Below are positions 10,273 through 43,879 of a stretch of DNA of 64,000 nucleotides, one piece after another (position 1 is the stretch's first letter; the number at the start of each line of letters is the position of its first letter). The DNA is from Escherichia phage VEcB, in the sequence record NC_052663.1, one strand, 5' to 3'. The notes below the pieces were generated by a model that made no database searches, had not been told where the DNA came from, and saw only the letters and a list, made by a program, of their open reading frames with translations. The translations under genes and the position numbers were made by a program.

Positions 10273-13148
10273 TGTCAAGAATTAAGCACAGAATTGACAA
10301 TGTTTTTCAACTGATCGATGGACATATTCAGTTCTTAGATCGTAATACAGGTTTAACTGTAGATCCTACAGTGCAACACTATGTATTAAACCCACAAAAC
10401 GTTCTAGCTAATAACAGACACTTTATAAACTGGACTGCTCAAGAAGGGCAACCAAACGGGGATGCTACAACAGAAGGTCAATCCGTGCTTATTCTTGGTT
10501 GCGCTTATGCATATCTAGCTTCCGGCGATACAAAGTATTTAGACTCTGCTAAAAAATATTGGCAAGCCTATATAGATTACTTCTTTGGTGGTCAACCTAT
10601 CCCAGATCCGCCAGCAAAGTATCGCCCTAACTGGATTATTAACGGTAAAGAACCACGTCTTGCACACTATCCTCTTACAGATGATGGCTACCCTACACAC
10701 GGAGGTTTTAAGGGTAGCTTAATGACGTGGACTAACGGTAGAACAGTTATTCCTCATGGTGCTCCACATTGGGGAGAATACCTTGACAAAGCATGGTTTG
10801 CTTTTAATGGTAATCTAGGATGGAACTCTGTAAACGCTACAGTATATGCTGTTAATGCAGATGGAACAACAGATTGGTCTAAGAATGGAGATCAATGGGA
10901 CGTTGATTGGATCATTGATCGTCTAGGACGTAAAGTTGATTGGGATGGAAATATCTTAGAAGAAGGTTTTCCAACATCTCAATACGGAACAGTTCAACTA
11001 AAAAATACTTCTGTAAACGGTACATATAAATTTAACTACGCGACTTGTAACCCTGTTGAACACGGTGGTTATTTAATGGAGCGTAACACTATGTGGCATA
11101 ACAGACCAGTTAACGTTCCGGTAGAAATGGGCTTTCAGGATAATGCGTCAGATGCCGAAACTTGGTGGTGTGATGCTAATTACCTGATGTACCAAATTAC
11201 AGGAGAAAGAAAATATTGGCTATGCTGGCAGTCTTCACTGTTAGTGTGTCAAGATTACTCAAACATTGATATGTTTGATAAATTTTTCCGTAAGTCTACA
11301 TATGCAACTATTCCGTTTACAGATGGCATCTCTTACGATTATTCATATCCATCTACAGCAATACCTAAATATTCAAGAGATACTTTAGGCTATATTGTTA
11401 TTAGACAAGATGTTGCTGCTCAAACAACATTAGAACAGCAAGCCATTTGGTTTAAAGTTGATCAGAACTCTAAGTTACGAGTCCAGTTTCAAGGTGTAGA
11501 TGACGCAGGACATGGTATTCTTTTCCGTCCAGAGTTGGAATTAAGTAAGACCAAAGATGAAAATAACACAGTAACTTACCGCTGTGGCTTACCACTAGGT
11601 ACAGCTAATATGACAAGCATGGATATTCCACTATCCAGCTTTATGAGAAGTACCCCTCCTAGTGGTGGAACATATATTATCGCAGATCCGCGAATTATTG
11701 TTGACTGGGGTGACAATACTGTGGTACAATATAAGTATGTAACAGGTATTGCTGGAACTAATAATGACCAGATTGTTACTGCATCAATGGATACGGATGG
11801 TGGTGTTACTGTTGGTTTTTGGTTAACTCCTACATCAAAAGCTAATGTTAAGTCTATTACATATAGAACATATGAAGATGACTTTAACATGACTATCACG
11901 GATGCTCAAGGTTGGAGATGGTGGGCTATGCTGCCTAAAACGCAAGGGGCATGGAGTACGAAGACTTTATCAGCCTCTGCTTTTAAGTTAAGTGCTTACC
12001 AGCCTAATCATCCAGAAACAGATCCTAAACCTTCAGCAATAAATCTTACTGCTGTAGATCAGGTAAATTTAGTTCTTGATACGGCTCCTGTCAATGGTTT
12101 AACAGGAACAATAGATTTCTATTGTATTAACGATGTACCTGAAAGATATTCGTCATCTTCTGGTGATGATTATACCATGTACTTCCGTATTACTGTACAG
12201 GCTTCAAGTCCTCATACTGCTAAGTTAGGTGATTGTACTATTATTGACTATAAGTTAAATAGTCTTAATTACACACCAGGAATAATTCCATTCTCTAATA
12301 TCAGTGACCCAAACACTGCATTATACGATGGATGGCGTGGTATTCCATACCCAGGATACCAGTATCCTTCCTTATACTGTTTCGCAGGTAGGGATATTGA
12401 TTGGACACGTTTAAACAACAGTATTGATTTCTTGTATGATGCTCAAATGTGGTTTTATAACACGTTTGATCCTGTGATGCCTGGGCCTATGGCACAAGCA
12501 TATGTGTGGGATCGTTGGGATGCAAGAAAATACGGTGAACCTAATACGTTTACAATGAAACACTGGAATGAAAAAGCGTGGGATGGTTATGAAGCTCGTG
12601 CATTCTACTGTGCTTGTCATGCTGTATACGAACTTGTACAAAGAGGAGAAACACCTCCTGAAAAACTAGTAACTGTTTGTAAAAATTGGATCAACTACCT
12701 TAAATGGTTCCAAGACAATAATGATGGAAGAACACCAACTATCTTTAATCCAGATGGTACAGTTCTTGCACCTATAGATGACTTTACTAGTCATATGTCT
12801 GCACTGTTTATGGCGGGTTGTTCAATCATGGGCTTGGCAGGTTATGATTCACAAATTCCAAACATTGGTATTGTAGCAGACAGATGTTTTGATCTGATTC
12901 AGCAAAACTATATTGTGCTTTCCCCTAACCATCCGATGAATGGTTCCTGGAGTGTTGCACCACGCCCAGATTCAGATAACGGAATGTTCTTTGGTTTCCA
13001 TGCTGGAGAACTATTACGTGGTTTTGGTTTATATGCCTTGTATCGTAAACTAAACCCTCAAAACGCTTTACCAATTTTGGATAATAGTAACATACCAACA
13101 CTAACTGTTCTAACTATGAATGATATTAGTGTTGATGTAACCAAATAA
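10272..13148 (+). CDS. large virion (baseplate/fibre-associated) protein
   Basis: 958 aa ORF; start overlaps the upstream stop (ATGTC/TAATG-type coupling); Trp/Tyr-rich. Confidence 0.4.
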   Translation: MSRIKHRIDNVFQLIDGHIQFLDRNTGLTVDPTVQHYVLNPQNVLANNRHFINWTAQEGQPNGDATTEGQSVLILGCAYAYLASGDTKYLDSAKKYWQAYIDYFFGGQPIPDPPAKYRPNWIINGKEPRLAHYPLTDDGYPTHGGFKGSLMTWTNGRTVIPHGAPHWGEYLDKAWFAFNGNLGWNSVNATVYAVNADGTTDWSKNGDQWDVDWIIDRLGRKVDWDGNILEEGFPTSQYGTVQLKNTSVNGTYKFNYATCNPVEHGGYLMERNTMWHNRPVNVPVEMGFQDNASDAETWWCDANYLMYQITGERKYWLCWQSSLLVCQDYSNIDMFDKFFRKSTYATIPFTDGISYDYSYPSTAIPKYSRDTLGYIVIRQDVAAQTTLEQQAIWFKVDQNSKLRVQFQGVDDAGHGILFRPELELSKTKDENNTVTYRCGLPLGTANMTSMDIPLSSFMRSTPPSGGTYIIADPRIIVDWGDNTVVQYKYVTGIAGTNNDQIVTASMDTDGGVTVGFWLTPTSKANVKSITYRTYEDDFNMTITDAQGWRWWAMLPKTQGAWSTKTLSASAFKLSAYQPNHPETDPKPSAINLTAVDQVNLVLDTAPVNGLTGTIDFYCINDVPERYSSSSGDDYTMYFRITVQASSPHTAKLGDCTIIDYKLNSLNYTPGIIPFSNISDPNTALYDGWRGIPYPGYQYPSLYCFAGRDIDWTRLNNSIDFLYDAQMWFYNTFDPVMPGPMAQAYVWDRWDARKYGEPNTFTMKHWNEKAWDGYEARAFYCACHAVYELVQRGETPPEKLVTVCKNWINYLKWFQDNNDGRTPTIFNPDGTVLAPIDDFTSHMSALFMAGCSIMGLAGYDSQIPNIGIVADRCFDLIQQNYIVLSPNHPMNGSWSVAPRPDSDNGMFFGFHAGELLRGFGLYALYRKLNPQNALPILDNSNIPTLTVLTMNDISVDVTK

Positions 13149-13156
13149 GGAAAATA

Positions 13157-15316
13157 ATGAAACAGGCTATTTTTACTGTAACTCGAAATACGAGAGTAAA
13201 TGCCAGTTCATTCAGCTATAAGACCGTCGATGGAACGGCGGTCGCTGGTAGAGATTATGTAGCTAAACAGGGAACAGTAACGTTCCCTTCTGATGCAGAT
13301 TCTGCTACTGTGGTGGTTGATGTATATGAACGTCCGGCAAACTCTTTAGATCTTTATTTTACTCTTGAGATTACTAGCATAAGTCAAAATAACATGATGA
13401 TCAATGAAGAAATTCGTTGTGTTATTACGACTAATCAATCGAATACAACCCCGCTAACTTGGCCTGTTGTGAAGTCTAGAATGTTTGATCCTAAGTTTTG
13501 GACAATAGATTCTCAATCAACAGAAAGTTGTTCTATTATCTCTAATGGTGATTCTTTCACGGCAAGAATGGTTAATAGGACAGTGGCTGGTCTTGCTGGG
13601 ATTATTTGGTCAACTTACGATAAATATGATCACAAAGGATTAGGCTACCAAGAACATTCTGATTTAAGTAAAGAAAAACTTTGGTTTAAAATGGAACTTA
13701 GTCAAGGTGTTCCTGGGTTAAAAGAAGAAAAATTAATGCCATCCTTAACAGTGACACTGAAGGATGAAACAGTTCATTATGTATCTCTAAACTTTTATGC
13801 AGAAGAAGTTTCAGAGGACGGTAAAACAGCAATAATCAAATTAGATTTCTCAAATTTAAAATCTGGGCCAGAAAATGATATTGTTGTTGACACTACACAG
13901 ATAGATAACATGTTCTTCTCCTTGATCTCCGCAAGGTATCAAGAAATTGAAGATGTTATACCTGTAGACAATATGGATCTTTCCTTTAAGTTTACCATAC
14001 TAGAGCCTGATACTGGTTACAGTATGATGAATATGGGTAATTTAAATGTTCCGGCGCACACCATAAGAATGTGTACATCTTATGATGATATGTATAACCT
14101 AACCCCAGAGCGAGTTATTTCTAACACCTATAGATTAGGTTATAGAGATATGATTAACCATTATAATGGTATGTCACACTATTATCAATTTAGTTGGGAT
14201 GCTGGATCTAATAAATGGGCTTTGAATAGAACAGAATATTTAAACCCAGCAACAGAAGCCTGGTTTGATAATTTCCACGCTAATGCAAAAGCTATGGGCT
14301 ACACAGTAATGAACTCCTTAAGTTTTGAACTTATGAGTACAGTGTGTCCTGTAGAATGGGTACAACATACTTGGAATGATGATCTGGCTGCTACAGGTTA
14401 TGAGCCACCAAGTTATGTTTTATCTCCTTCAATTGATGAAGGGATGAATTATTTACAAGGTGTAATAAATAAGATAGCTTCTATATCCGCTACCAATGAT
14501 CTTCCTGTTATTATTCAGGTTGGTGAACCGTGGTGGTGGTATAACACAGCTACCAATCTCCCGTGTATTTATGATTATGCAACCAAAGTTGCATTTAATA
14601 ATGAAACTGGATTATATGCACAAGATGTTGGTACAGTTAAGAATTATAAAACTGGTACACCATATGATGAATATTATGCATTCCTATCTAAAACATTAGG
14701 ACTGCGTGTTGCTAAATTTGCAACAGATACTAGATTAGCATATCCTGGAGCAAAAGTTACATTGTTACCATTTGTGCCATCCATTTTGGGTAATGGTATG
14801 ATGGAGTTTGTTAACTTCCCTAAAGATTATTATATCCCAGAAAACTTTGACTTTTATTGTTCAGAATGTTATGATTGGTTGTTGGAAGGTAAGATGGAAA
14901 GATCTTTCGACGCTATCACAATACCTAATGAGCAACTAGGTTTTAGTTACAATAAGATACATTATCTTGCAGGGTTTGTTCCAGATGCAACTCTAGCACC
15001 ATTATATGGCTTTGATCCTGAATCAAACTATAGAACATATTTGTGGAAAATGATTATAGGTAATATTGTATTGAATGATCAGAAGTTTGTTGGTTTATAT
15101 CAATACATATGGGCTTATCCACAAATAATGCATGATTCAATAACTGTTCTTAATTCAAAATCCCAAGTTTTTTATATGGGTAATGTGCCTTTGAATTGCT
15201 ATTTGCAAGATATCACTCTTAAACAGGTAAATGTTACGATTGCTACTATAAGCGGAATTACATTAGCCACTAAATCTGGAGAAGATTTAGTAACAACACA
15301 AAAATTTTATATATAG
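13157..15316 (+). CDS. virion protein with N-terminal Calx-beta-like domain
   Basis: 719 aa; N-terminal VDGTAVAGRDYVAKQGTVTFPSDADSATVVVDVYER matches the Calx-beta pattern. Confidence 0.45.
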   Translation: MKQAIFTVTRNTRVNASSFSYKTVDGTAVAGRDYVAKQGTVTFPSDADSATVVVDVYERPANSLDLYFTLEITSISQNNMMINEEIRCVITTNQSNTTPLTWPVVKSRMFDPKFWTIDSQSTESCSIISNGDSFTARMVNRTVAGLAGIIWSTYDKYDHKGLGYQEHSDLSKEKLWFKMELSQGVPGLKEEKLMPSLTVTLKDETVHYVSLNFYAEEVSEDGKTAIIKLDFSNLKSGPENDIVVDTTQIDNMFFSLISARYQEIEDVIPVDNMDLSFKFTILEPDTGYSMMNMGNLNVPAHTIRMCTSYDDMYNLTPERVISNTYRLGYRDMINHYNGMSHYYQFSWDAGSNKWALNRTEYLNPATEAWFDNFHANAKAMGYTVMNSLSFELMSTVCPVEWVQHTWNDDLAATGYEPPSYVLSPSIDEGMNYLQGVINKIASISATNDLPVIIQVGEPWWWYNTATNLPCIYDYATKVAFNNETGLYAQDVGTVKNYKTGTPYDEYYAFLSKTLGLRVAKFATDTRLAYPGAKVTLLPFVPSILGNGMMEFVNFPKDYYIPENFDFYCSECYDWLLEGKMERSFDAITIPNEQLGFSYNKIHYLAGFVPDATLAPLYGFDPESNYRTYLWKMIIGNIVLNDQKFVGLYQYIWAYPQIMHDSITVLNSKSQVFYMGNVPLNCYLQDITLKQVNVTIATISGITLATKSGEDLVTTQKFYI

Positions 15317-15324
15317 GAGTAAAA

Positions 15325-17574
15325 ATGTCAACTACAATTACTAATTTACCCGAAACATCAAAAGTTAATGGTTCTGATTACCTGGTTTTAGACCAACCTG
15401 ATAAGACTGTTAAAAGCACAGTTTCCAACTTTCTTACTGACACTGGGGTGGTTTTAGCCACCCAGCTAAAAGATGTTTCTGGAGCTACCAAGTATCCAGA
15501 ACTTCAGATTGCACGCTGGCGAGACGAGGGAGATATCAGAGGGTGGGGCACGGAAACGAACGGTGATGTTACCGAAGCAATCATTAAGGCGGTAGCGGCG
15601 ACAAGCGGCACTATCATTGTGCCTCCAGGCAATTATACGGCCACGCCAACCTTGGAGCAGGTTCCTTCTGTACTGAAATTGCTTTCACAAGCAGAGTTTC
15701 GAGGATCATTAGATATCAATCTCCCTGCGGGAACAGTTAACCTTTCTGAAAAAACGGTAATACGTTCGCAAAATGTCCATAACCTGTCTATCTCTGGGGT
15801 TAAATACTCGACATCCCTAACCGGTCTGGTAAGTGTTAGTGGCAGTCCAAAGGCATATCTGGTAACTATCTCTCTGGCAGATGCATCGAATGTTTCTGTC
15901 GGCGACGTGGTGATGATTCGCCACGACATCTCAGGAACTGGAGGGTATCACATTCACTGTGGTGGATGGGTTGTGGATGCGGTATCTGGTAATAATGTCA
16001 CCGTAAAAAATACCTGCCACCTTTCTGCATTCCCGACATCAACGATTACTAGTGGGTCGGTAGTCATTCTTAAAAGCATTCTGAAATACACTGGCTGTGA
16101 TGGTATTGTGGCAGCAGGCTCGGGATGCATTAAGACGATAAATGGTGTCGCTATTGTCGGTGATTATGATCTGGCAACAGGCTCTGGAACTATCGGGGCA
16201 CACGGCTTCTCCCTTACCACTCCAGACATAACCGTTGCTAGTCCAGACCCATCCAATGAAGTTTTTGATGCATCAGGCTGCATAGCTATTGGCCCTGATT
16301 TGGCGATTGTTGGGTTCGGTGAGCAGGGGTTTGTAGCGTCAGAGAGATCTGGTGTGGTTTCAAACTTTATATCTTCATGCTCTAACCGCAAGCGCGGTGT
16401 ATATTCTGAAGGCGCTCATATACGCGGTAAATTTATGCTTTGCTCAGGGAATGGTGAGGATGGGATTATTTCAGACATTGGTGGCGCAATTCAGGCTAAC
16501 GGTTCAGTTTGCTCAGGAAATGGACTTAACGGTTTTTGGTCATTCAACCACAGTCTCTTGAGTGCTCCTGGCGGGATTTCGTGTGGTAACTTCACGAATG
16601 GTGCGGAAGCGCGCGGACCAGGTGCATTAAATCTGCAAAATGGGAAGAGCTATTTAAACAGGCTAATTGGTGCAACCGCGTCAAATGGTGGGACGGTTAT
16701 TTTTACTGGCTCAACATCAACGCAGAATGGCACGGATGGACTGGTTGCAGTTTATGATGGTTTGATCTCTGCCGCCAATGCCAGCTCAGTGGGCAACGGA
16801 CGCTATGGGGTTGCCGTAACTCACGCAAAAATTGTGCTTACAGGCTCAGGAAGCGTAAGCGGAAATTCAACTGTAGATTTCATCGATCGCGGCGAGGGTA
16901 CTATAATTAAGCCGGATGGAACGATGCTGCCAAGAAAGGCTGCCCCGCAAAGCATCCTTTCTATTCGTAACGCCAATCTTTCCGGTGCTGATGTTACGGC
17001 ATCATCAATTGGTGATATTACCGTCTCGCAAAGAAACACATCCTCGGGTGCATTAACCCCCCTGTATGTATTCAAATCTGACGGAACCCAGCTTCCAGTC
17101 AATGACGCCACGCAGAACCTTGGCAGGGCAAGCAATCGCTACAATGTTGGTTTCTTCGCTGGCGGAACACAGTCAACTTCAGATGCCACACTTAAAGACC
17201 CTATCCGAGAGTTCAATCAGGCCGAACTCAATGCAGCAATGCGCATCTCGAAAATGTTTGGATTCTGGACGTGGCTTGATGATGACAATAAGCGTTTGCA
17301 TGCAGGGACTACGGTTCAAGCAGTGTTAGCTGTTCTGGAAGAGGAAGGTCTAGACTGGCGTAGCTATGGATTTATCTGTTTTGATGAGTGGGATGATGAA
17401 TATACCCCGGTAACCATTGAGGTAGATGGCGAAGTCGTTGAAACAGGGGAAATGAAATTAGTGCGTGAGGCTGGTTCTGTCTGGCAACTGCGCGATCAGG
17501 AATTTGACCGTTTCGTTATGCGTGGACTTTCTGAAAGGCTGAGTATTATAGAAAGTAAGCTGGATTTACTGTAA
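15325..17574 (+). CDS. tailspike with C-terminal intramolecular chaperone-like domain
   Basis: 749 aa; conserved AT-rich N-terminal anchor, then a GC-rich Gly/Ser-rich beta-helix-like body, then a C-terminal S-D..K / FGFWTWLDDD region resembling peptidase S74-type autoproteolytic chaperone domains (recalled pattern). Confidence 0.5.
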   Translation: MSTTITNLPETSKVNGSDYLVLDQPDKTVKSTVSNFLTDTGVVLATQLKDVSGATKYPELQIARWRDEGDIRGWGTETNGDVTEAIIKAVAATSGTIIVPPGNYTATPTLEQVPSVLKLLSQAEFRGSLDINLPAGTVNLSEKTVIRSQNVHNLSISGVKYSTSLTGLVSVSGSPKAYLVTISLADASNVSVGDVVMIRHDISGTGGYHIHCGGWVVDAVSGNNVTVKNTCHLSAFPTSTITSGSVVILKSILKYTGCDGIVAAGSGCIKTINGVAIVGDYDLATGSGTIGAHGFSLTTPDITVASPDPSNEVFDASGCIAIGPDLAIVGFGEQGFVASERSGVVSNFISSCSNRKRGVYSEGAHIRGKFMLCSGNGEDGIISDIGGAIQANGSVCSGNGLNGFWSFNHSLLSAPGGISCGNFTNGAEARGPGALNLQNGKSYLNRLIGATASNGGTVIFTGSTSTQNGTDGLVAVYDGLISAANASSVGNGRYGVAVTHAKIVLTGSGSVSGNSTVDFIDRGEGTIIKPDGTMLPRKAAPQSILSIRNANLSGADVTASSIGDITVSQRNTSSGALTPLYVFKSDGTQLPVNDATQNLGRASNRYNVGFFAGGTQSTSDATLKDPIREFNQAELNAAMRISKMFGFWTWLDDDNKRLHAGTTVQAVLAVLEEEGLDWRSYGFICFDEWDDEYTPVTIEVDGEVVETGEMKLVREAGSVWQLRDQEFDRFVMRGLSERLSIIESKLDLL

Positions 17575-17639
17575 TTAAGAGCCGCTATCTCCTACTATGA
17601 TGGCGGCAACCTTAAAATATTTAAGTGGGGAGCCACCTA

Positions 17640-17885
17640 ATGAGAAAATTTTTAATAGGTATGTTTTGTACATATCCTGATAATAAAGTCAGTTCTACTA
17701 AAGTTTGGAATGCTATTGGTATGATTGTTATGTCCAGTATGTTTATTTATTTGGGAATTGATAAAGAAATTCCTGAATGGATGGGCTGGGCTTTTGTTTT
17801 TATGATCACGCCATCCAGACTAATGAAGAATTTAATAGATTTACGTTGGGGCAGATCACCTGCCCCTGATAAGGAGGATAACTAA
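17640..17885 (+). CDS. small membrane protein with two predicted TM helices (holin-like topology)
   Basis: 81 aa from ATG 17640 (RBS GGGGAG 7 nt upstream; ORF track starts at GTG 17625); two hydrophobic segments. Confidence 0.3.
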   Translation: MRKFLIGMFCTYPDNKVSSTKVWNAIGMIVMSSMFIYLGIDKEIPEWMGWAFVFMITPSRLMKNLIDLRWGRSPAPDKEDN

Positions 17886-19372
17886 TGGCAGATTATGGTT
17901 TAACAGATGCTGGTTTTGTCATTCCAACGTTTGATGATATTCTAAATAATTATATGACAGCATTGAAAAACACTTTCGGTGCAGATACAGCTACATCTGA
18001 AGATACAGTCTTTGGTCAACTGTTTCGTATTATTGCATATACAGATTACACCCTTTGGGAAGGTATGCAAGGTGTTTACAATACCCAAACCTTAGATGGT
18101 GCAGAAGGTATTTACCTTGATGAAATTTTCTCTAAAAGGGGTTTTTATCGTAAAGCTGCTTCTGCTGGTAGTGGTTATGCTTATGTTAAATCTAACAATA
18201 AGGCAGCTTGGACTTATGAACTAAGCACAGATGTTTATTTTAATGCCGATAACGATTTAACATATTATGTCAGTGCACCGACAATGTTGAATGCTAAGAT
18301 TGGAGCATATACCATTTCTAAAGCAAACGCAACAGCTTCTGGTGAAACTTCTATTACTTTCTACATTCAAAGTGCTATTGATGGTGGTCTTAACAGTAAA
18401 ACACTAAGTCCTAGCAATACAAACTTTATTGTAGATCTCACGAATTTCATTAAAGCTAACGTATCAACAACAGATCGTGCTTTAGTATGGAATGATGCCA
18501 GTAATGTTTACATGGGTTATAATCCAGAAGATAATGTTAACCCAGTAGGTCTAGTAACACCAGTGAAATTTTACGCATCTATTGCAATAGGTACAAAATG
18601 GAGTGAAATTCCAGTTACGTGCTCAGACGTTGGTTATAATCCAGTAGGCACAGAAAGTATCACAGGTATTTCTTCAACGTTTACAGGCTTTTTAGATACA
18701 GGTAACTTCTATCCATTCTCTCCAGGTACAGATGTTGAAACAGATGCAGAATTCCGTTCTCGTTTCAATGATAATATGGATGAAGCTAATGCTGCTACTC
18801 GTGCTGCTATTGTTAAAGCTCTACTACTGACAGATGGTGTGACAAAGGTTAAGATTTATGATAACCCTACATTACACGATCAGGAACATGCTCCAGCTAT
18901 GACATTCCAGACTATTGTGTATGGTGGTACAGCAGAAGAAGTTGCACAGGTTATTTATAATACTAAGCCTATTAACACCTTAACCTATGGTACAACAGCA
19001 ATTACTATCGTAACAGAAGATGGCGGTCAAGAAGTAATTCGTTTTTCTCCTGGTGACAATGCTGAATATTCACTTAAACTAGTATATCAAACTGGCAATG
19101 GTAGTGTGTTAAGTACAACAGAAAGAGAAAATATTGTTTCTGCTCTTTCAAATCTACAGGCTTATTTTGAGCTAGGGTCAACAGTAACTAACGATCAGAT
19201 AAAAGGTGTAATTTATTCTGCACTTGCGTTCGGACGCTTGACTTCTCTCCGTGTTTATGTTAAACTTAATACTGAGGATGACAGTAAATATAATGAGGGA
19301 GATATCACTCCAGCGTACAATGTTGTACCATCCTTTGACCTTGATAATATTTCCTACGAGTACGGAGTCTAA
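17885..19372 (+). CDS. baseplate protein J-like (gpJ / gp6 family)
   Basis: 495 aa; N-terminal pattern typical of Baseplate_J proteins; followed by an I-like gene, fibre and fibre-assembly gene (P2 order J-I-H-G). Confidence 0.6.
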   Translation: MADYGLTDAGFVIPTFDDILNNYMTALKNTFGADTATSEDTVFGQLFRIIAYTDYTLWEGMQGVYNTQTLDGAEGIYLDEIFSKRGFYRKAASAGSGYAYVKSNNKAAWTYELSTDVYFNADNDLTYYVSAPTMLNAKIGAYTISKANATASGETSITFYIQSAIDGGLNSKTLSPSNTNFIVDLTNFIKANVSTTDRALVWNDASNVYMGYNPEDNVNPVGLVTPVKFYASIAIGTKWSEIPVTCSDVGYNPVGTESITGISSTFTGFLDTGNFYPFSPGTDVETDAEFRSRFNDNMDEANAATRAAIVKALLLTDGVTKVKIYDNPTLHDQEHAPAMTFQTIVYGGTAEEVAQVIYNTKPINTLTYGTTAITIVTEDGGQEVIRFSPGDNAEYSLKLVYQTGNGSVLSTTERENIVSALSNLQAYFELGSTVTNDQIKGVIYSALAFGRLTSLRVYVKLNTEDDSKYNEGDITPAYNVVPSFDLDNISYEYGV

Positions 19373-19374
19373 AA

Positions 19375-20004
19375 ATGGCAGTGAGTGTTGACCATGTGAC
19401 AACGTGGGATAGTATCAATGAAGATGTTAAAGACCTACTGATTGAAGATTTTAAATCTTCTCCGAACATTGTCAAACTACTCTATATCATTTCTAGCGAA
19501 AAACAAAAGATAGATCAGGCAATGATCTATCTTGCCAAACACCGCTTAATCTCTACTGCAACTGGTAAGTATTTAGATCTTATTGGTGAAGAGATGGGGA
19601 TGGAAAGAAATGGTGCTACAGATGAAGAGTATCGTACAATATTAAAAATCAGGGCTTATCGTGTTGCGTCTTCTGGTACGCGAGATGATATCATTGATAT
19701 GTTCGCTCGTTTTACAGGAACAGAAAAAGAAACGATTAATACATACGTTGGATTAAATAAAACATTCGACGTATTCTTTTATAATTTGTGTCTACAATCC
19801 GATCAGGCAGTAGCACAGTTACTTAACGTTTTCCCGATCCTAAGTAGTTATCGCTTAGGTGCGAAAGCGGGTGCAGCCTTTGGTTTCACTTCCTATTATG
19901 CCACAACTCCACCTCATGGTATAGGTGGTTTAGGTTCTCTTTACACAGAGGCTGAAGGAGATGATACAGGGCGAATGACTATGCTGATAGCTCAAATAGA
20001 ATAA
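19375..20004 (+). CDS. putative baseplate protein gpI-like
   Basis: 209 aa immediately downstream of the J-like gene. Confidence 0.4.
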   Translation: MAVSVDHVTTWDSINEDVKDLLIEDFKSSPNIVKLLYIISSEKQKIDQAMIYLAKHRLISTATGKYLDLIGEEMGMERNGATDEEYRTILKIRAYRVASSGTRDDIIDMFARFTGTEKETINTYVGLNKTFDVFFYNLCLQSDQAVAQLLNVFPILSSYRLGAKAGAAFGFTSYYATTPPHGIGGLGSLYTEAEGDDTGRMTMLIAQIE

Positions 20005-24368: not shown

Positions 24369-26330
24369 GTGATTTTAACACGTCCAAATAGTGCCATTGC
24401 AGACATGGTAGAGTCTCGCTATAGAAAGCGTAGAAGTTTTGCAAGTGGTTTTACCTTAAGAGATGCTCGTGAAGCATTGCTCTTTGAAACTGACGGTAAC
24501 TACTATCAGTGGAAAGGTTCTCTACCTAAAGTTGTACCTGCTAACTCTACTCCTACATCTACTGGAGGGATTTCAGATACAGCTTGGAAAAATGTGGGTA
24601 ATGCAGATGACATTGCTCAAATAGAATCAGAATTAGATGCTATTGAAGCTGAAATTGAAGATCTTAGAGAATCCATTCCAGAAGCTGGTAAATCAGCTTA
24701 CCAGATTGCCGTAGACAATGGTTTCCAAGGTGCTGAGACAGACTGGTTGGCTTCTTTAAAAGGTGATCCAGGTGCTCCATTAAAGCTGCTAGGGACGCTA
24801 TCTAATACCAACCAATTACCTACAACCGGAAACAATGCAGGAGATGCATGGATTGTAGGAGAAAATATGTATGCTTGGGATGGTACTGCTTGGAGAAAAG
24901 TAAACTCACAGGGGCCAGAAGGTAAATCAGCTTATCAAGTTTGGCTTGCAGCAGGAAACCAAGGTACAGAACTAGATTATCTTGCTTCAATTAAAGGTGA
25001 TAAAGGGGAACCTGGCCCAGAGGGGCCACAAGGTGTACCAGGTAACAATGCTAATGGTTTTGATTACCAAGGTGCAGCTAATTCCGTTTCAGATCTTCCT
25101 TCTGCATCTCCTGGAAACACATCTCAAGCATGGAGTATTGGTACATATCTATACGTGTCAAACGGTGTAGAATGGATCAATATGGGCGCTATAGTGGGGC
25201 CAAAAGGAGATAAAGGCGACAAAGGAGATAAGGGTAACACTGGTGATTCAGCTTATCAAGTCTGGTTAAACGCTGGTAACGTTGGTACTATTGACGAATA
25301 TATTGCCTCTCTGAAAGGAGAAAAAGGTGATAAGGGAGACAAGGGTGATCAAGGTGAGCAGGGTATACAAGGCTTGACGGGGCCAACTGGTGCAGGGTTG
25401 ACCATTATTGATATTCTGACTGACACTTCTGAACTACCACAAACTGGAGAAGATGGTGATGGTTATCTGATCAATAATGAACTTTGGGTTTGGTTGCAAG
25501 GAGCCACACAGTGGACAAATGTTGGTCGTTTAGCTGGTACTCCAATCACTGCAAAAGGACACGTTGCGTCTGCAAGTGCACTTCCTCCTACATCCAATTA
25601 CGGTGATGCTTATCTAACGGAAGACACAGGTCATCTTTACATTTACACCTATGATGAACAAACTCAAACTGCTGAATATGTAGATATGGGTAGTTTGAAA
25701 GGTGATAAGGGTGAGAAAGGTGACGCTGGTACTAACGGTACGGATGGTGCAACTTGGATTGTTAAAACAACAGATCCAATCTCTAGTGATGGTAAACAAG
25801 GTGATTATGCCTTTAATATCTCCACTGGCGAGGTGTTCTTAAAAACATCTGCAACTGTCTGGACTTCTCAAGGTACACTACCTAGCATCACAGATGCACC
25901 TAGTGACGGTAAGATCTATGCTCGTAAAGATGGAGCATGGGAAGAACTAACTAGTTCTGTAGATGGTCAAGATATAGTTCCAACAAAAGTAACAGCTAAT
26001 TTTATAGAGGTTACAGCATACACCAACAACTCTGTTATAGGTGACTGGACACCTCCAGGAACACATAACATGAATGTGTTGAATCTTACTGGTAACGCTA
26101 CTATAAAAGCATGGCCTGGTGTCGAAGATAGCACAAAACCTAAACCATTCTCTGCAATAGTTTATCTTATCCAAGATGCCACTGGAGGTCGTACTGTTAC
26201 TTTAGATCCATCTTACAAAGTAATTGGTTCTAGTGATATTAATACAGATCCTAACGGAGTAACAATACTACAACTAACATATTGTGGTGTTGGCAATTAC
26301 GTGGATGCTATTGTTGCTAAACGCACATAA
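24369..26330 (+). CDS. tail fibre protein with collagen-like GXY repeats
   Basis: 653 aa; GTG start after AAAGGAG; several Gly-X-Y runs (GDKGEPGPEGPQGVPG; GDKGDKGDKGNTGD; GEKGDKGDKGDQGEQGIQGLTGPTG) separated by a recurring approx. 30 aa motif (SAYQ.W...GN.GT..DY.AS.KG). Confidence 0.65.
   Translation: MILTRPNSAIADMVESRYRKRRSFASGFTLRDAREALLFETDGNYYQWKGSLPKVVPANSTPTSTGGISDTAWKNVGNADDIAQIESELDAIEAEIEDLRESIPEAGKSAYQIAVDNGFQGAETDWLASLKGDPGAPLKLLGTLSNTNQLPTTGNNAGDAWIVGENMYAWDGTAWRKVNSQGPEGKSAYQVWLAAGNQGTELDYLASIKGDKGEPGPEGPQGVPGNNANGFDYQGAANSVSDLPSASPGNTSQAWSIGTYLYVSNGVEWINMGAIVGPKGDKGDKGDKGNTGDSAYQVWLNAGNVGTIDEYIASLKGEKGDKGDKGDQGEQGIQGLTGPTGAGLTIIDILTDTSELPQTGEDGDGYLINNELWVWLQGATQWTNVGRLAGTPITAKGHVASASALPPTSNYGDAYLTEDTGHLYIYTYDEQTQTAEYVDMGSLKGDKGEKGDAGTNGTDGATWIVKTTDPISSDGKQGDYAFNISTGEVFLKTSATVWTSQGTLPSITDAPSDGKIYARKDGAWEELTSSVDGQDIVPTKVTANFIEVTAYTNNSVIGDWTPPGTHNMNVLNLTGNATIKAWPGVEDSTKPKPFSAIVYLIQDATGGRTVTLDPSYKVIGSSDINTDPNGVTILQLTYCGVGNYVDAIVAKRT
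24990..25750 (+). repeat. collagen-like GXY coding repeats interleaved with fibre repeat motif
   Basis: Repeated GAYAARGGNGAYAARGG-type codon periodicity visible in DNA (e.g. 25204..25245, 25318..25400, 25700..25745). Confidence 0.55.
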
Positions 26331-42363: not shown

Positions 42364-42415
42364 TGTTTTCTCCTCTTCTATTTAAAATATGCGCCCCGAA
42401 GGGCGCTATGATTTA

Positions 42416-43012
42416 TTACTCGAACCAATCGTCGCCAGCGCCAAACGCTTTAACTACATCATAAATGTCAAGTCCAGCTTTACCTACACCATATGCTTTC
42501 AGTTTCCATTCGCTATCTTCCCGTACCAGGGAGGCAACGTGGCAAATGGTATTACCTGCAAGTTCTGGAGCCAAGAAGTCAAAATCCAGCAGTTCAACGT
42601 TACGTTCATCATCGAAGATTTTAAGGAAACCTTCGGTAGCGTGACCAAGGCGTTTCTTACCCGTTTCGTCATCAATAGTGATTACGAATGCAATTTCCTG
42701 TGCTTCAGCAGAGATATTACCCAGTGTAACATCAATCTGCTCCATCTGTCCTACACCATCACGAACATCTTCACCTGCAAAAGTAGAACGTTCAGGATCA
42801 AATTTCTGTGCGTAGCATACCAGGTGGCGAGGAGACAACAGTTCCGGCAGACCAGATGCATTGTGTCGGCAAATCAGAGCACTAACATCCAGATCCAGTT
42901 TTTCGTTAGATTTCCAAGAGAATTCCAGACGAATGCGTTTCAGTGCTGGTGCAATCTTTTTCAGAGAAACTTTTTCGCTAGAACCTTTTTTCAGGGAAAT
43001 TTTCTGAGTCAT
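42416..43012 (-). CDS. terD: TerD-family protein
   Basis: 198 aa; N-terminal SLKKGSSEKVSLKK, DLDVSALIC, IAFVITIDD and C-terminal SEWKLKAYGVGKAGL closely parallel conserved TerD blocks; AAGGAG RBS. Confidence 0.8.
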   Translation of the reverse strand: MTQKISLKKGSSEKVSLKKIAPALKRIRLEFSWKSNEKLDLDVSALICRHNASGLPELLSPRHLVCYAQKFDPERSTFAGEDVRDGVGQMEQIDVTLGNISAEAQEIAFVITIDDETGKKRLGHATEGFLKIFDDERNVELLDFDFLAPELAGNTICHVASLVREDSEWKLKAYGVGKAGLDIYDVVKAFGAGDDWFE

Positions 43013-43049
43013 AATTTATTATCTCCTTTGTTGTTAATTTACGTTATCT

Positions 43050-43077
43050 ATTTTACTAATCTTTTCTACAAAGTCAA
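43050..43077 (-). promoter_or_regulatory. sigma70-like promoter TTGACT-N16-TAAAAT (minus strand) upstream of terD
   Basis: -35 at 43072..43077, -10 at 43050..43055 (minus-strand reading). Confidence 0.45.
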
Positions 43078-43084
43078 GCGTTTT

Positions 43085-43879
43085 TTACGCTTTTGCTCCG
43101 AATTTTTTAACCCACTCGCCAAACTCTTCGGATAGCAGTTTATCGTAAAGTTCTTCGTCAGACAAGGACAAATCTGCAATACCGATAAAGTCAACGTTAT
43201 CGTATTCTTTTGCCAAGTCTTTCAGGAATTTAAAGTTTGCATTACCTACACCAACCATAAACCAGTAAACAGGAGTGTTGCGGTGTTTGTTCAGCAAACT
43301 ACGTACTGCTGAAGTATCCATGTTCTCCCCGTCAGTTTGGAAGAAAATCATTGCAGGAGTACGATCAACTTGTGCATCAGTATCTACAACCTGTTCTACA
43401 ACAGTACGTGTAACTTCTACAAGTTCTTTTTTACCAGTCAGTTTAGCAAGGAAACCCTTAGCCGGAACTTCTTCATACTCAACGACTTCGCGTGTAATAT
43501 TTTTCATAGGTACACTACCGAAGTATGTATCATAGATCTCTTGCATTACTGGAGCATAAGCTGTACCACCATTGATGCAAATGTTAGACATGCAAGAGCC
43601 GACATAATCATCATATACATCAGCCGTTGCAGGAGGCAGTTCAAAAGAAGAACTATTGAAAGCCCACATGTCAATCTGTGCATTATCATCAAACTTCATA
43701 CCAAACGGCAGCAGTTTACCTACAAAATCACTAACAGTGCCATCACGATATAGCTCACACATACTACCCGAAATATCTAAGGCGCTACCGACACGAAGAA
43801 CAACATCGTTAATCTTTTTCTTACGCAGAGATACAGTAAGAGTTTCTTGACGTTTTTTAAGACTGATTTTATTGGACAT
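43085..43879 (-). CDS. vWA-domain protein (TerF/TerY-like)
   Basis: 264 aa; TerD-like N-terminal SLKK..TLTVSLRKK start followed by vWA MIDAS motif DISGSM and downstream Thr/Asp metal-site residues. Confidence 0.55.
   Translation of the reverse strand: MSNKISLKKRQETLTVSLRKKKINDVVLRVGSALDISGSMCELYRDGTVSDFVGKLLPFGMKFDDNAQIDMWAFNSSSFELPPATADVYDDYVGSCMSNICINGGTAYAPVMQEIYDTYFGSVPMKNITREVVEYEEVPAKGFLAKLTGKKELVEVTRTVVEQVVDTDAQVDRTPAMIFFQTDGENMDTSAVRSLLNKHRNTPVYWFMVGVGNANFKFLKDLAKEYDNVDFIGIADLSLSDEELYDKLLSEEFGEWVKKFGAKA

What the first reader, a model, noticed from the sequence alone, without database searches (positions are those of the whole stretch)
15480..17574. Abrupt GC-rich segment inside tailspike gene 15325..17574 (mosaic receptor-binding domain)
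The first approx. 150 nt of the gene are AT-rich like the rest of the genome, but from about 15480 to the stop the coding sequence is visibly GC-richer by eye (roughly half GC versus under 40 percent elsewhere; not computed). The conserved N-terminal anchor is followed by a Gly/Ser-rich enzymatic body and a C-terminal chaperone-like region. This is the signature of a horizontally acquired host-range module.
Basis: seen in the sequence. Interest (0 to 1): 0.5.

Follow-up and report, generated by a model that had tools for sequence, protein, structure and literature searches.

The report
Swapped tailspike module, probably K15 capsule-specific
The GC-rich stretch is real: it is a receptor-binding cassette swapped by recombination into one tailspike gene of a phi92-like E. 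coli phage, an ordinary kind of mosaicism, and it most likely encodes an enzyme that cuts the K15 capsule, a specificity I found no report of for any phage.

Summary
Window GC is 0.379, but 15481-17574 is 0.479, the only long GC-rich run in the 64 kb. About 40% of the excess comes from Gly/Ser/Ala-rich protein composition and about 60% from codon choice (GC3 0.416 against 0.245 expected).

The ORF 15325-17574 sits in the slot of phi92 gp143. Most relatives share only its first 150-231 nt. A 99.2% identical copy lies in phage 536_P1, a different genus whose flanks are only about 75% identical. The body also occurs in a 56-kb Sashavirus (86.5%) and in E. coli prophages (82-89%), each time behind a different N-terminal anchor.

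Among 5,426 complete E. coli genomes, prophage copies track the K15 capsule locus better than O6 O-antigen. In published data, loss-of-function K15-locus mutations make strain 536 resistant to 536_P1.

Verdict: a textbook mosaic tailspike. The near-identical VEcB gene is already catalogued as a horizontally exchanged receptor-binding protein with no receptor assigned. The K15 assignment is new but inferred, not shown.

The parts
15315..15319 (+). Ribosome-binding site AGGAG, 5 nt upstream of the ATG
   Evidence: Read directly from the sequence. The same motif is annotated upstream of phi92 gene 143.
15325..17574 (+). Tailspike gene (749 aa) in the slot of phi92 gp143, between homologs of gp142 and gp144
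   Evidence: ORF list. Synteny with phi92, phAPEC8, alia, PaulScherrer and ETEC-TG.
15325..15474 (+). Particle-anchor module, aa 1-50, with native composition (GC 0.373)
   Evidence: 98% nt identity to dozens of Justusliebigvirus and Phapecoctavirus genomes whose genes diverge completely afterwards. 94-100% aa identity in proteins with unrelated bodies.
15475..15561 (+). Junction linker, aa 51-79 (...YPELQIARWRDEGDIRGWG...), GC about 0.55; the 5' recombination zone
   Evidence: Breakpoints of different relatives cluster here: alia at about nt 135-140, PaulScherrer type at about nt 150-160, phi92/phAPEC8 at nt 224-231, and Sashavirus homology starts at nt 238 (alignment A1). The peptide matches an unrelated solved tail spike, 9vvr residues 212-260. 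This position corresponds to the conserved end-of-anchor DNA motif reported in PMC10408124.
15562..17139 (+). Receptor-binding/enzymatic body, aa 80-605, GC 0.482; right-handed beta-helix with a 23-residue Asn ladder (N376...N514)
17140..17178 (+). Stem segment, aa 606-618 (YNVGFFAGGTQST), ending at the predicted cleavage site
   Evidence: 100% identical in homologs P0003-P0009. It aligns with the residues just before the annotated cleavage site of phi92 EndoN92.
17179..17571 (+). C-terminal intramolecular chaperone domain (Peptidase_S74), aa 619-749; predicted nucleophile Ser619 (17179-17181) and Lys624 (17194-17196)
   Evidence: Pfam PF13884; PDB sequence matches 4uw8, 7y5s, 6eu4, 3gud; Foldseek matches 4uw8, 3gw6, 3gud; S/D/K conserved in 46 of 47 homologs. 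It exchanges independently of the body (ETEC-TG and P0034: CTD 90-97% identical, body 31-59%).
17575..17639 (+). Intergenic spacer that travels with the cassette; contains an imperfect hairpin (17581-17588 / 17600-17607)
   Evidence: Nearly identical (one substitution and one 1-nt indel in ETEC-TG) in the window, 536_P1 and ETEC-TG, but unrelated in phi92, phAPEC8, alia and PaulScherrer, which rejoin only at the next ATG (alignment A2). It did not pass the terminator scan on the + strand.
17640..17885 (+). Downstream membrane-protein gene (phi92 gp144 homolog). Its first ~65 nt are the 3' recombination arm
   Evidence: Identity to 536_P1 is 100% up to about 17700 and falls to about 80% beyond. 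Conserved ATG at 17640 with GGGGAG at 17627-17632.

Best explanation
The gene is a three-module tailspike of a phi92-like myovirus. A 50-residue N-terminal anchor, native to the phage, plugs the spike into the baseplate slot that holds the endosialidase in phi92. After a conserved linker comes a foreign cassette of about 2.1 kb. It encodes a trimeric right-handed beta-helix that binds and most likely cleaves a host surface polysaccharide, followed by a C-terminal intramolecular chaperone. That chaperone is predicted to help the spike fold and then cut itself off between Thr618 and Ser619. The cassette entered by homologous recombination, using the conserved end of the anchor and linker on one side and the start of the next gene on the other. 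It has moved recently between two phage genera and, over a longer time, among myoviruses, a Sashavirus and temperate phages. It keeps its own GC of about 0.47-0.48 in every genome it sits in, which is why it stands out in this 38% GC genome. The most likely substrate is the E. coli K15 capsule (GlcNAc-Kdo repeat), so the module would let the phage adsorb to and penetrate K15-encapsulated strains such as UPEC 536 and O6:K15:H16 ETEC. What is shown: the composition shift, the breakpoints, the module distribution, the fold, the S74 motifs and the co-occurrence with K15. What is inferred: trimerisation, catalysis, self-cleavage and the K15 substrate.
For: Composition.

Slot and synteny.

Breakpoints: relatives share only nt 1-150 or 1-231 (alignments A1/A2).

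Recent inter-genus swap: identity to Phapecoctavirus 536_P1 is at least 97% from about 15244 to about 17700, against about 75% in the flanks.

The body sits behind other anchors: Sashavirus 536P12 (86.5% nt, 87.6% aa) and prophages (82-89% nt). Homologs carry PF18668, PF09008 or other N-termini of 158-207 aa while the body is 83-93% identical.

The body's GC is about 0.47-0.48 in all backgrounds: Sashavirus flanks 0.37-0.46, prophage flanks 0.49-0.54. Another cassette in the same slot (PaulScherrer) is also GC-rich, whereas phi92's endosialidase is not.

Chaperone.

K15: of 5,426 genomes, 63 carry a K15-specific gene and 154 carry O6 wzy. Carriers of the spike-body family are 18/31 among K15+O6+, 4/32 among K15+O6-, 1/123 among K15-O6+ and 1/5240 among K15-O6-. 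The K15 effect within O6-negative genomes has p = 6e-9. The K15+O6- carriers come from human, pig, pangolin and chicken, and carry three different alleles. The K15 locus and the prophage lie 0.5-3 Mb apart.

Published genetics: 536_P1 (OZ035728.1, gene 99.2% identical) is resisted by strain 536 clones with frameshift, nonsense and deletion mutations in K15 synthesis and export genes, and adsorption is lost (PMC11495123).

Published serogroups: PMC10408124 found VEcB-RBP relatives in prophages of O6, O11 and O153 strains and itself suggested a shared K antigen.
Against: No enzymatic or binding assay exists for this protein or for any homolog that I found.

The co-occurrence counts were derived indirectly, from the number of BLAST 'places' per genome with chimeric queries. 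Many K15+O6+ carriers belong to one clonal ETEC lineage.

There are two exceptions: E70 (module present, no K15 fragment) and LR-27.

An 86%-identical body occurs in a Leclercia sp. protein (P0008).

The authors of PMC11495123 saw a thicker K15-reactive layer in their K15-locus mutants, could not complement them, and concluded that the capsule masks the receptor rather than being it. 77% of the resistance mutations were in LPS core genes.

The phage carries several other fibres and spikes, so phenotypes of whole phages cannot be attributed to this one protein.

The catalytic residues are not identified. The fold alone does not distinguish a hydrolase from a lyase or a pure binder.
Confidence: 0.6

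Rival explanations
1. The architecture and history are the same, but the substrate is the O6 O-antigen. The spike would be an O6-specific endoglycosidase like the P22, Sf6 or HK620 tailspikes, and the K15 association would be a by-product of the O6:K15 clones.
For: 15 of the 16 chromosomes with the closest prophage copies carry O6 wzy, and two are labelled O6:H16. Phages 536_P1 and 536P12 are named after strain 536, which carries O6 wzy/wzx; 536_P1 was amplified on it. 536_P1 needs intact LPS, since waa, galU and heptose mutants are resistant and can be complemented. Within K15+ genomes, carriers are more frequent among O6+ (18/31 vs 4/32). The closest prophage relative reported in PMC10408124 is in an O6 strain.
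Against: Only 1 of 123 O6+ K15- genomes carries the family, and that one belongs to the K15 ETEC lineage. By contrast 4 of 32 K15+ O6- genomes from four host species carry it. The LPS mutations reported are in core and heptose genes, not O-antigen-specific genes, and the term 'O-antigen' does not occur in the main text of that paper. Relatives occur in O11 and O153 hosts.
Confidence: 0.2
2. The cassette is a host-range module, but it targets some other glycan (for example another capsule-like polymer, or an enterobacterial polysaccharide shared with Leclercia), or it only binds without cleaving.
Against: Polar and acidic residues are strongly conserved in homologs down to about 31% identity (E333, E362, E378, D379, D384, R357, Y360, K369), as expected for an active site. 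Most of the top structural neighbours are polysaccharide-active enzymes and phage depolymerases. The K15 co-occurrence would be left unexplained.
Confidence: 0.15
3. There was no horizontal transfer. The GC rise would merely reflect the Gly/Ala/Ser-rich composition of a beta-helix protein that evolved in place.
For: Amino-acid composition alone raises the expected GC from 0.377 to 0.418.
Against: Observed GC is 0.480 and GC3 is 0.416 against 0.245 expected. Homology breakpoints are sharp. Near-identical copies lie in genomes whose flanks are only about 75% identical. The body occurs in unrelated phages and prophages.
Confidence: 0.02
4. The junctions are an assembly chimera in this one genome.
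For: None beyond how abrupt the shift is.
Against: The same junctions, in frame, occur in four independent records (OZ035773, OZ035770, OZ035799, OZ035728) and, with a diverged body, in OR786310. The ORF is intact, with conserved motifs across all three modules.
Confidence: 0.01

Closest known systems
phi92 gp143 (EndoN92 endosialidase tailspike precursor)
   Same: Same genomic slot between the gp142 and gp144 homologs. Same N-terminal region: aa 1-75 differ at 5 positions. Same C-terminal self-cleaving chaperone, with the annotated cleavage site T756|S757 aligning to T618|S619 here.
   Different: The body is unrelated: there are no endosialidase Pfam domains and identity is 14-18% in the alignment. 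phi92's cassette has native GC (0.36-0.40), whereas this one is 0.48. The substrate is polysialic acid there and probably K15 here.
VEcB RBP (YP_009987349.1), subtype 'X7' in Virol J 2023 (PMC10408124)
   Same: Essentially the same gene (99.5% nt to the VEcB record OZ035773). It is already listed among receptor-binding proteins identified through horizontal-transfer events, with conserved DNA motifs before and after the receptor-binding domain.
   Different: That study assigned no receptor. It did not note the GC shift, the 536_P1 and Sashavirus copies or the K15 co-occurrence, and only speculated about a K antigen.
Intramolecular chaperone domains of K1F endosialidase (3gw6), T5 L-shaped tail fibre pb1 (4uw8) and phi29 gp12 (3gud)
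   Same: Sequence and fold match. The Ser-Lys dyad motif (S-D-x-x-x-K) is conserved.
   Different: Here it is attached to a different body. Cleavage has not been demonstrated.
Beta-helix capsule and O-antigen depolymerase tailspikes (CBA120 TSP2/3, Klebsiella K1 lyase, K64-1 S2-4, AP22 gp54, HK620/P22-type spikes)
   Same: Right-handed parallel beta-helix body, modular anchor-plus-enzyme design, and exchange between phage types.
   Different: Only 9-14% sequence identity, and no PDB sequence homolog for aa 90-573. The chemistry (hydrolase or lyase) is unknown. K15 specificity is not in the published list of E. coli capsule depolymerases in PMC12488582.

Membership tests
Peptidase_S74 / intramolecular chaperone of tail spikes and fibres (PF13884) | Profile match above the curated cut-off | tested here: met
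   33.7 bits against a cut-off of 22, aa 619-676, covering the full profile 1-58.
Peptidase_S74 / intramolecular chaperone of tail spikes and fibres (PF13884) | Catalytic Ser-Lys dyad at the start of the domain (S-D-x-x-x-K) | tested here: met
   S619, D620 and K624 are present and conserved in 46 of 47 homologs that have the domain. They align with phi92's annotated cleavage Ser757 and with the Ala at the equivalent position of T5 pb1 in 4uw8.
Peptidase_S74 / intramolecular chaperone of tail spikes and fibres (PF13884) | Chaperone-domain fold | tested here: met
   Foldseek matches to 4uw8 (E 3e-11), 3gw6 (E 1e-6) and 3gud (TM 0.76 normalised by target length).
Peptidase_S74 / intramolecular chaperone of tail spikes and fibres (PF13884) | Autoproteolytic release of the domain after trimer assembly | not testable with these tools
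   Needs SDS-PAGE or mass spectrometry of recombinant protein or virions, with S619A and K624A controls.
Right-handed parallel beta-helix polysaccharide depolymerase tailspikes | Beta-helix fold of the central domain | tested here: met
Right-handed parallel beta-helix polysaccharide depolymerase tailspikes | Identifiable catalytic acid residues in a substrate groove | tested here: inconclusive
   A conserved cluster exists (E333, E362, E378, D379, D384), but no trimer model, ligand or mutational data are available.
Right-handed parallel beta-helix polysaccharide depolymerase tailspikes | Depolymerising activity on the host polysaccharide | not testable with these tools
   Needs halo assays and product analysis.
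Tailspikes of the gp143 slot of Stephanstirmvirinae (phi92-like phages) | Position between the gp142 and gp144 homologs, plus the shared N-terminal anchor | tested here: met
   Synteny. Anchor aa 1-50 is 94-100% identical to slot proteins with other bodies.
Endosialidases (GH58; PF12217/PF12218/PF12219) | Endosialidase beta-propeller and beta-barrel domains | tested here: not met
   No such Pfam hits in this protein, whereas phAPEC8-type slot proteins have them. Body identity to them is 14-18%.
K15 capsule-specific depolymerase (no family defined yet) | Association of the spike with K15-encapsulated hosts | tested here: met
   22 of 24 carrier genomes are K15+, against 63 of 5,426 overall. The association holds within O6-negative genomes. 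Loss-of-function K15-locus mutations protect strain 536 from 536_P1.
K15 capsule-specific depolymerase (no family defined yet) | Cleavage of the K15 polysaccharide | not testable with these tools
   No assay was possible. No published K15 depolymerase was found.

The most novel reading that the evidence does not exclude
This cassette is the first identified K15-capsule depolymerase, and the K15 capsule is a required primary receptor of the therapeutic model phage 536_P1 and of this phage. The published K15-locus resistance mutations would then act by removing or altering the spike's substrate rather than by 'overproducing a masking capsule'. The module would be a portable K15 host-range cartridge shared by myoviruses, a Sashavirus and temperate phages.
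Probability: 0.45. Interest if true: 0.55.

Novelty: new member of a known kind. Interest (0 to 1): 0.35.

Why it matters
The mosaic itself is textbook. Phi92-like phages carry several exchangeable spikes, and the near-identical VEcB gene is already listed in the literature as a horizontally exchanged receptor-binding protein.

What is useful is the receptor assignment. K15 is a capsule type of extra-intestinal pathogenic E. coli (strain 536) and of the O6:K15:H16 ETEC clone. I found no K15 depolymerase in the literature I could search.

If the assignment holds, the protein is a ready candidate for a K15-typing or decapsulating reagent. It would also explain the host range of 536_P1, a phage used in pneumonia therapy models, and prompt a re-reading of its published resistance data.

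The case also shows that a GC step inside a tail gene marks a swapped cassette reliably, but that roughly 40% of such a step can be protein composition.

Tried and rejected
I used the alignment tool and the alignment files instead.

2. I first favoured O6 O-antigen as the receptor. I demoted it after a paper on the K15 capsule showed that FORC_031 carries K15 and the K15/O6 contingency test favoured K15.

3. Terminator scan: there is no + strand intrinsic terminator after the gene, only an imperfect hairpin. I could not confirm here the 'motif three / terminator' of PMC10408124, because its consensus is only shown in a figure.

4. PDB sequence search: no homolog for the body (aa 90-573), only for the linker and the C-terminal domain.

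5. Pfam and PHROGs give no enzymatic family for the body.

6. Literature dead ends: Korf 2019 does not mention VEcB. Schwarzer 2012 (phi92 structure) is not held. No paper mentions 536_P12. The Guelin-collection preprint and the 2026 capsule-typing paper say nothing about K15 phages or depolymerases.

7. Assembly artefact and composition-only explanations were rejected (see the rival explanations).
Full report
**Observation.** The window as a whole has GC 0.3785. In 300-nt windows the mean is 0.379 (sd 0.035), and in 2-kb windows the sd is 0.020. From about 15450 to 17500 GC stays at 0.44-0.51. The interval 15481-17574 is 0.479, and the richest 2-kb window (0.484) lies about 5 sd above the mean. 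No other run above 0.45 longer than about 350 nt exists in the 64 kb. Maximum-likelihood change points are 15436 and 17543. The ORF 15325..17574 (749 aa) is intact, with an AGGAG site at 15315-15319. Its first 150 nt have GC 0.373, like the rest of the genome.

**How much of the shift is foreign DNA.** I recoded the body's amino-acid sequence with the codon usage of the other 49 long ORFs of the window. The expected values are GC 0.418 and GC3 0.245; the observed values are 0.480 and 0.416. So about 40% of the excess over the genomic 0.377 follows from a Gly/Ser/Ala-rich protein (Gly 12.5% vs 7.2%, Ser 10.5% vs 6.4%). About 60% is synonymous codon choice that does not fit this genome. The only ORF with a larger GC3 excess (42389..43135, + strand) lies among minus-strand genes and is probably spurious.

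**Genomic context.** The window is a phi92-like myovirus of the genus Justusliebigvirus. It is 99.3% identical to OZ035773 (VEcB) over 13000-19500. The gene occupies the slot of phi92 gp143, the endosialidase tailspike precursor. Upstream is the gp142 homolog (a TIM-barrel 'non-contractile tail sheath' protein) and downstream is the small gp144 membrane protein, followed by a baseplate J-like protein.

**Breakpoints.** Of 127 phage records matching 13000-19500, only four cover the gene body. Most Justusliebigvirus genomes share only nt 1-150 of the gene, at 98% identity. The endosialidase-bearing phages (phi92, phAPEC8, ESCO5) share nt 1-224 or 1-231, at 90-94%. Alignment of the 5' junction shows the relatives peeling off one after another inside the stretch that encodes ...KDVSGATKYPELQIARWRDEGDIRGWG. 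Homology to the 56-kb Sashavirus 536P12 begins immediately after it, at gene nt 238.

At the 3' end, the window, 536_P1 and ETEC-TG are almost identical through the stop codon, the 65-nt spacer and the first ~65 nt of the next gene. All the other relatives rejoin only at that gene's ATG, at 17640.

Sliding identity to Phapecoctavirus 536_P1 is about 0.75 across the gp142 gene. It rises to at least 0.97 from about 15244 to about 17700, and then falls back to about 0.8. This is the footprint of a recent exchange of about 2.5 kb between two genera, by recombination in conserved arms.

**Three modules, not two.** ETEC-TG has the same anchor, and the region from about 17140 to the stop, which covers the C-terminal domain, is highly similar (73-100% identity in 100-nt windows). 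Its central body, however, is only 59% identical at the amino-acid level. Across 69 homologs:
- The closest bodies (83-93% identical) sit behind unrelated N-termini of 158-207 residues (PF18668 TSP1/gp66-type, PF09008 P22 head-binding type, or others).
- P0034 has this protein's anchor (100%) and C-terminal domain (90%) but a 31%-identical body.
- P0010 has a 75%-identical body with a 57%-identical C-terminal domain.

Anchor, body and chaperone therefore exchange independently.

**Composition across backgrounds.** The body keeps GC of about 0.47-0.48 wherever it sits:
- In this 0.38 myovirus.
- In Sashavirus 536P12, where the flanks are 0.37-0.46.
- In the E. coli prophage, where the gene is 0.466 and neighbouring phage genes are 0.49-0.54.

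In the same slot, the PaulScherrer cassette is also GC-rich (0.46-0.48), while phi92's endosialidase is not (0.36-0.40). The GC step thus marks particular travelling cassettes, not the slot itself. The ultimate donor remains unknown.

**Protein structure.** Pfam finds only Peptidase_S74, at aa 619-676. The PDB sequence search finds the C-terminal ~175 residues (T5 pb1 4uw8, E 4e-27; also 7y5s, 6eu4, 3gud) and the linker (9vvr), but nothing for aa 90-573.

The sequence itself shows an asparagine ladder with an exact 23-residue period (N376, 399, 422, 445, 468, 491, 514). It also shows a cluster of residues conserved in homologs down to 31% identity (E333, Q334, R357, Y360, E362, K369, E378, D379, D384). 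These are candidates for an active site.

The phi92 record annotates cleavage between T756 and S757. This aligns with T618|S619 here, followed by D620 and K624. S, D and K are conserved in 46 of 47 homologs that have the domain. The inferred mature spike is aa 1-618, with a 131-residue domain released.

**What it binds.** The body occurs at 82-89% nt identity in 16 of 5,426 complete E. coli genomes. There it is the tail-fibre gene of a prophage beside yfgI, next to a holin/GH19 lysis cassette, and in eight of these genomes only the 3' two-thirds of the body matches, consistent with the IS100 split annotated in M9682-C1. Alleles at 77% and 69% occur in other prophages; in PK12 the context is P22-like (Arc/Ant genes upstream).

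Two carrier strains are labelled O6:H16, and phages 536_P1 and 536P12 are named after strain 536, which carries O6 wzy/wzx and the K15 locus and is O6:K15:H31; 536_P1 was amplified on it. So I first suspected the O6 antigen. A paper on the K15 capsule then showed that FORC_031, one of the carriers, has the K15 locus. O6 and K15 were therefore confounded.

To separate them I built chimeric BLAST queries and counted matching places per genome:
- body + O6 wzy from strain 536;
- body + a K15 region-2 gene from strain 536;
- K15 fragment + O6 wzy.

The result: 63 genomes are K15+, 154 are O6+ and 31 are both. Carriers of the body family are:

| Genome class | Carriers |
|---|---|
| K15+ O6+ | 18 of 31 |
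| K15+ O6- | 4 of 32 |
| K15- O6+ | 1 of 123 |
| K15- O6- | 1 of 5,240 |

The four K15+ O6- carriers are 2016C04-116 (human), PK12 (pig), M172-1 (pangolin) and GPEC859 (chicken), with three different alleles. The single K15- O6+ carrier is E70. It carries the same IS100-split allele as the O6:H16 ETEC carriers, so it probably belongs to that lineage. The K15 effect within O6-negative genomes has p = 6e-9, and the O6 effect within K15-negative genomes has p = 0.045. The capsule locus and the prophage lie 0.5-3 Mb apart, so physical linkage does not explain the association.

Independent published evidence points the same way:
- PMC10408124 found relatives of the VEcB RBP in prophages of O6, O11 and O153 strains. 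It left the protein without a serogroup (subtype X7) and suggested a shared K antigen.
- PMC11495123 selected 536_P1-resistant clones of strain 536. Of the mutations, 77% were in LPS core or heptose genes and 18% were in the K15 locus. Its supplement lists the K15-locus mutations as an 8.5-kb deletion [ECP_3009]-[kpsE], kpsD G32*, 1-bp deletions in ECP_3027, 3029, 3031 and 3033, a 353-bp deletion in ECP_3035, and W281R in ECP_3034.

That is a loss-of-function spectrum, as expected when a capsule is a required receptor. The authors, however, observed a thicker antiserum-reactive layer, could not complement the mutants, and proposed masking by overproduction.

K15 is a GlcNAc-Kdo disaccharide polymer with partial O-acetylation. 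It is not on the list of E. coli capsules with known phage depolymerases in PMC12488582.

**Caveats on the K15 assignment.**
- The counts rest on place counts rather than on direct typing.
- Many K15+O6+ carriers are clonal.
- Two carriers lack the K15 fragment.
- A Leclercia protein has an 86%-identical body.
- These phages carry several other spikes and fibres, so whole-phage phenotypes cannot be attributed to this one protein.

I put K15 at about 0.6, O6 at about 0.2, and another glycan or pure binding at about 0.15.

**Comparison with what is known.** The architecture is that of phi92 gp143 and of other modular tailspikes: a phage-specific anchor, an exchangeable beta-helix enzyme and an S74 chaperone. 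The protein passes the tests for S74 membership (profile, dyad, fold) and for the beta-helix fold. It fails the tests for the endosialidase family. The near-identical VEcB gene is already published as a horizontally exchanged receptor-binding protein, with conserved DNA motifs on either side of its receptor-binding domain. The linker mapped here lies where that paper places its end-of-anchor motif.

**Verdict.** The feature is an ordinary mosaic tailspike: a new member of a known kind. The modest added value is a specific, testable receptor assignment (K15 capsule), plus a possible re-reading of published 536_P1 resistance data. Interest 0.35.

Noticed in passing
L005 4715-4864 (phage alia) and L007 4754-5059 (PaulScherrer); the corresponding place in the window is 17575-17639: In relatives that carry other cassettes, a short annotated ORF ('tail fibers protein', 'tailspike protein') lies between the slot gene and the gp144 homolog. 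A stretch upstream of gp144 is conserved between alia and PaulScherrer. These look like leftovers of earlier cassettes. The window has only a 65-nt spacer there.
   Followed up: partly
L009 2827-3453 and 5971-7386 (E. coli O6:H16 M9682-C1): The prophage copy of the spike is split by an IS100 insertion (istA/istB) in M9682-C1. The seven other chromosomes with this allele match only from the same point of the body onwards, so they probably carry the same split. That prophage's spike is inactivated there.
   Followed up: partly
window 17625-17642: The mechanical ORF call starts the downstream gene at GTG 17625. However, conservation in all relatives begins at ATG 17640, which is preceded by GGGGAG (17627-17632). 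The true start is most likely 17640.
   Followed up: yes
window 42389-43135 (+): This ORF has GC3 0.573 but GC1 0.355 and lies among minus-strand genes. It is probably a spurious antisense ORF rather than a second foreign gene.
   Followed up: no
L007 3600-4500 versus L001 3326-6082: The unrelated cassette in the same slot of phage PaulScherrer (Bas60) is also GC-rich (0.46-0.48), whereas phi92's endosialidase cassette has native GC (0.36-0.40). GC steps therefore differ from cassette to cassette.
   Followed up: partly
L004 4001-6253 (phage ETEC-TG) and protein P0034: These genes keep the same anchor and nearly the same C-terminal chaperone as the window gene, but their central bodies are 59% and 31% identical respectively. 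The body can be replaced on its own between two conserved ends of the same gene.
   Followed up: yes
Protein P0008 (Leclercia sp. EC_58): A tail fibre/spike protein from a different enterobacterial genus has a body 86% identical to this one. It is unexplained if the spike is strictly specific for E. coli K15. A 2026 capsule-typing paper notes that K15 KpsC and KpsS may originate outside E. coli.
   Followed up: no
window 15304-15331 (- strand): A sigma-70-like promoter match (11 of 12 positions) lies on the opposite strand across the start codon. Only one such site was found in this region, where shuffled sequences give about five, so it is probably chance.
   Followed up: no
window 4301, 19801, 25101-25351, 42601: Isolated 300-nt windows with GC above 0.45 occur elsewhere, some within other tail and baseplate genes. 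None forms a long run.
   Followed up: no
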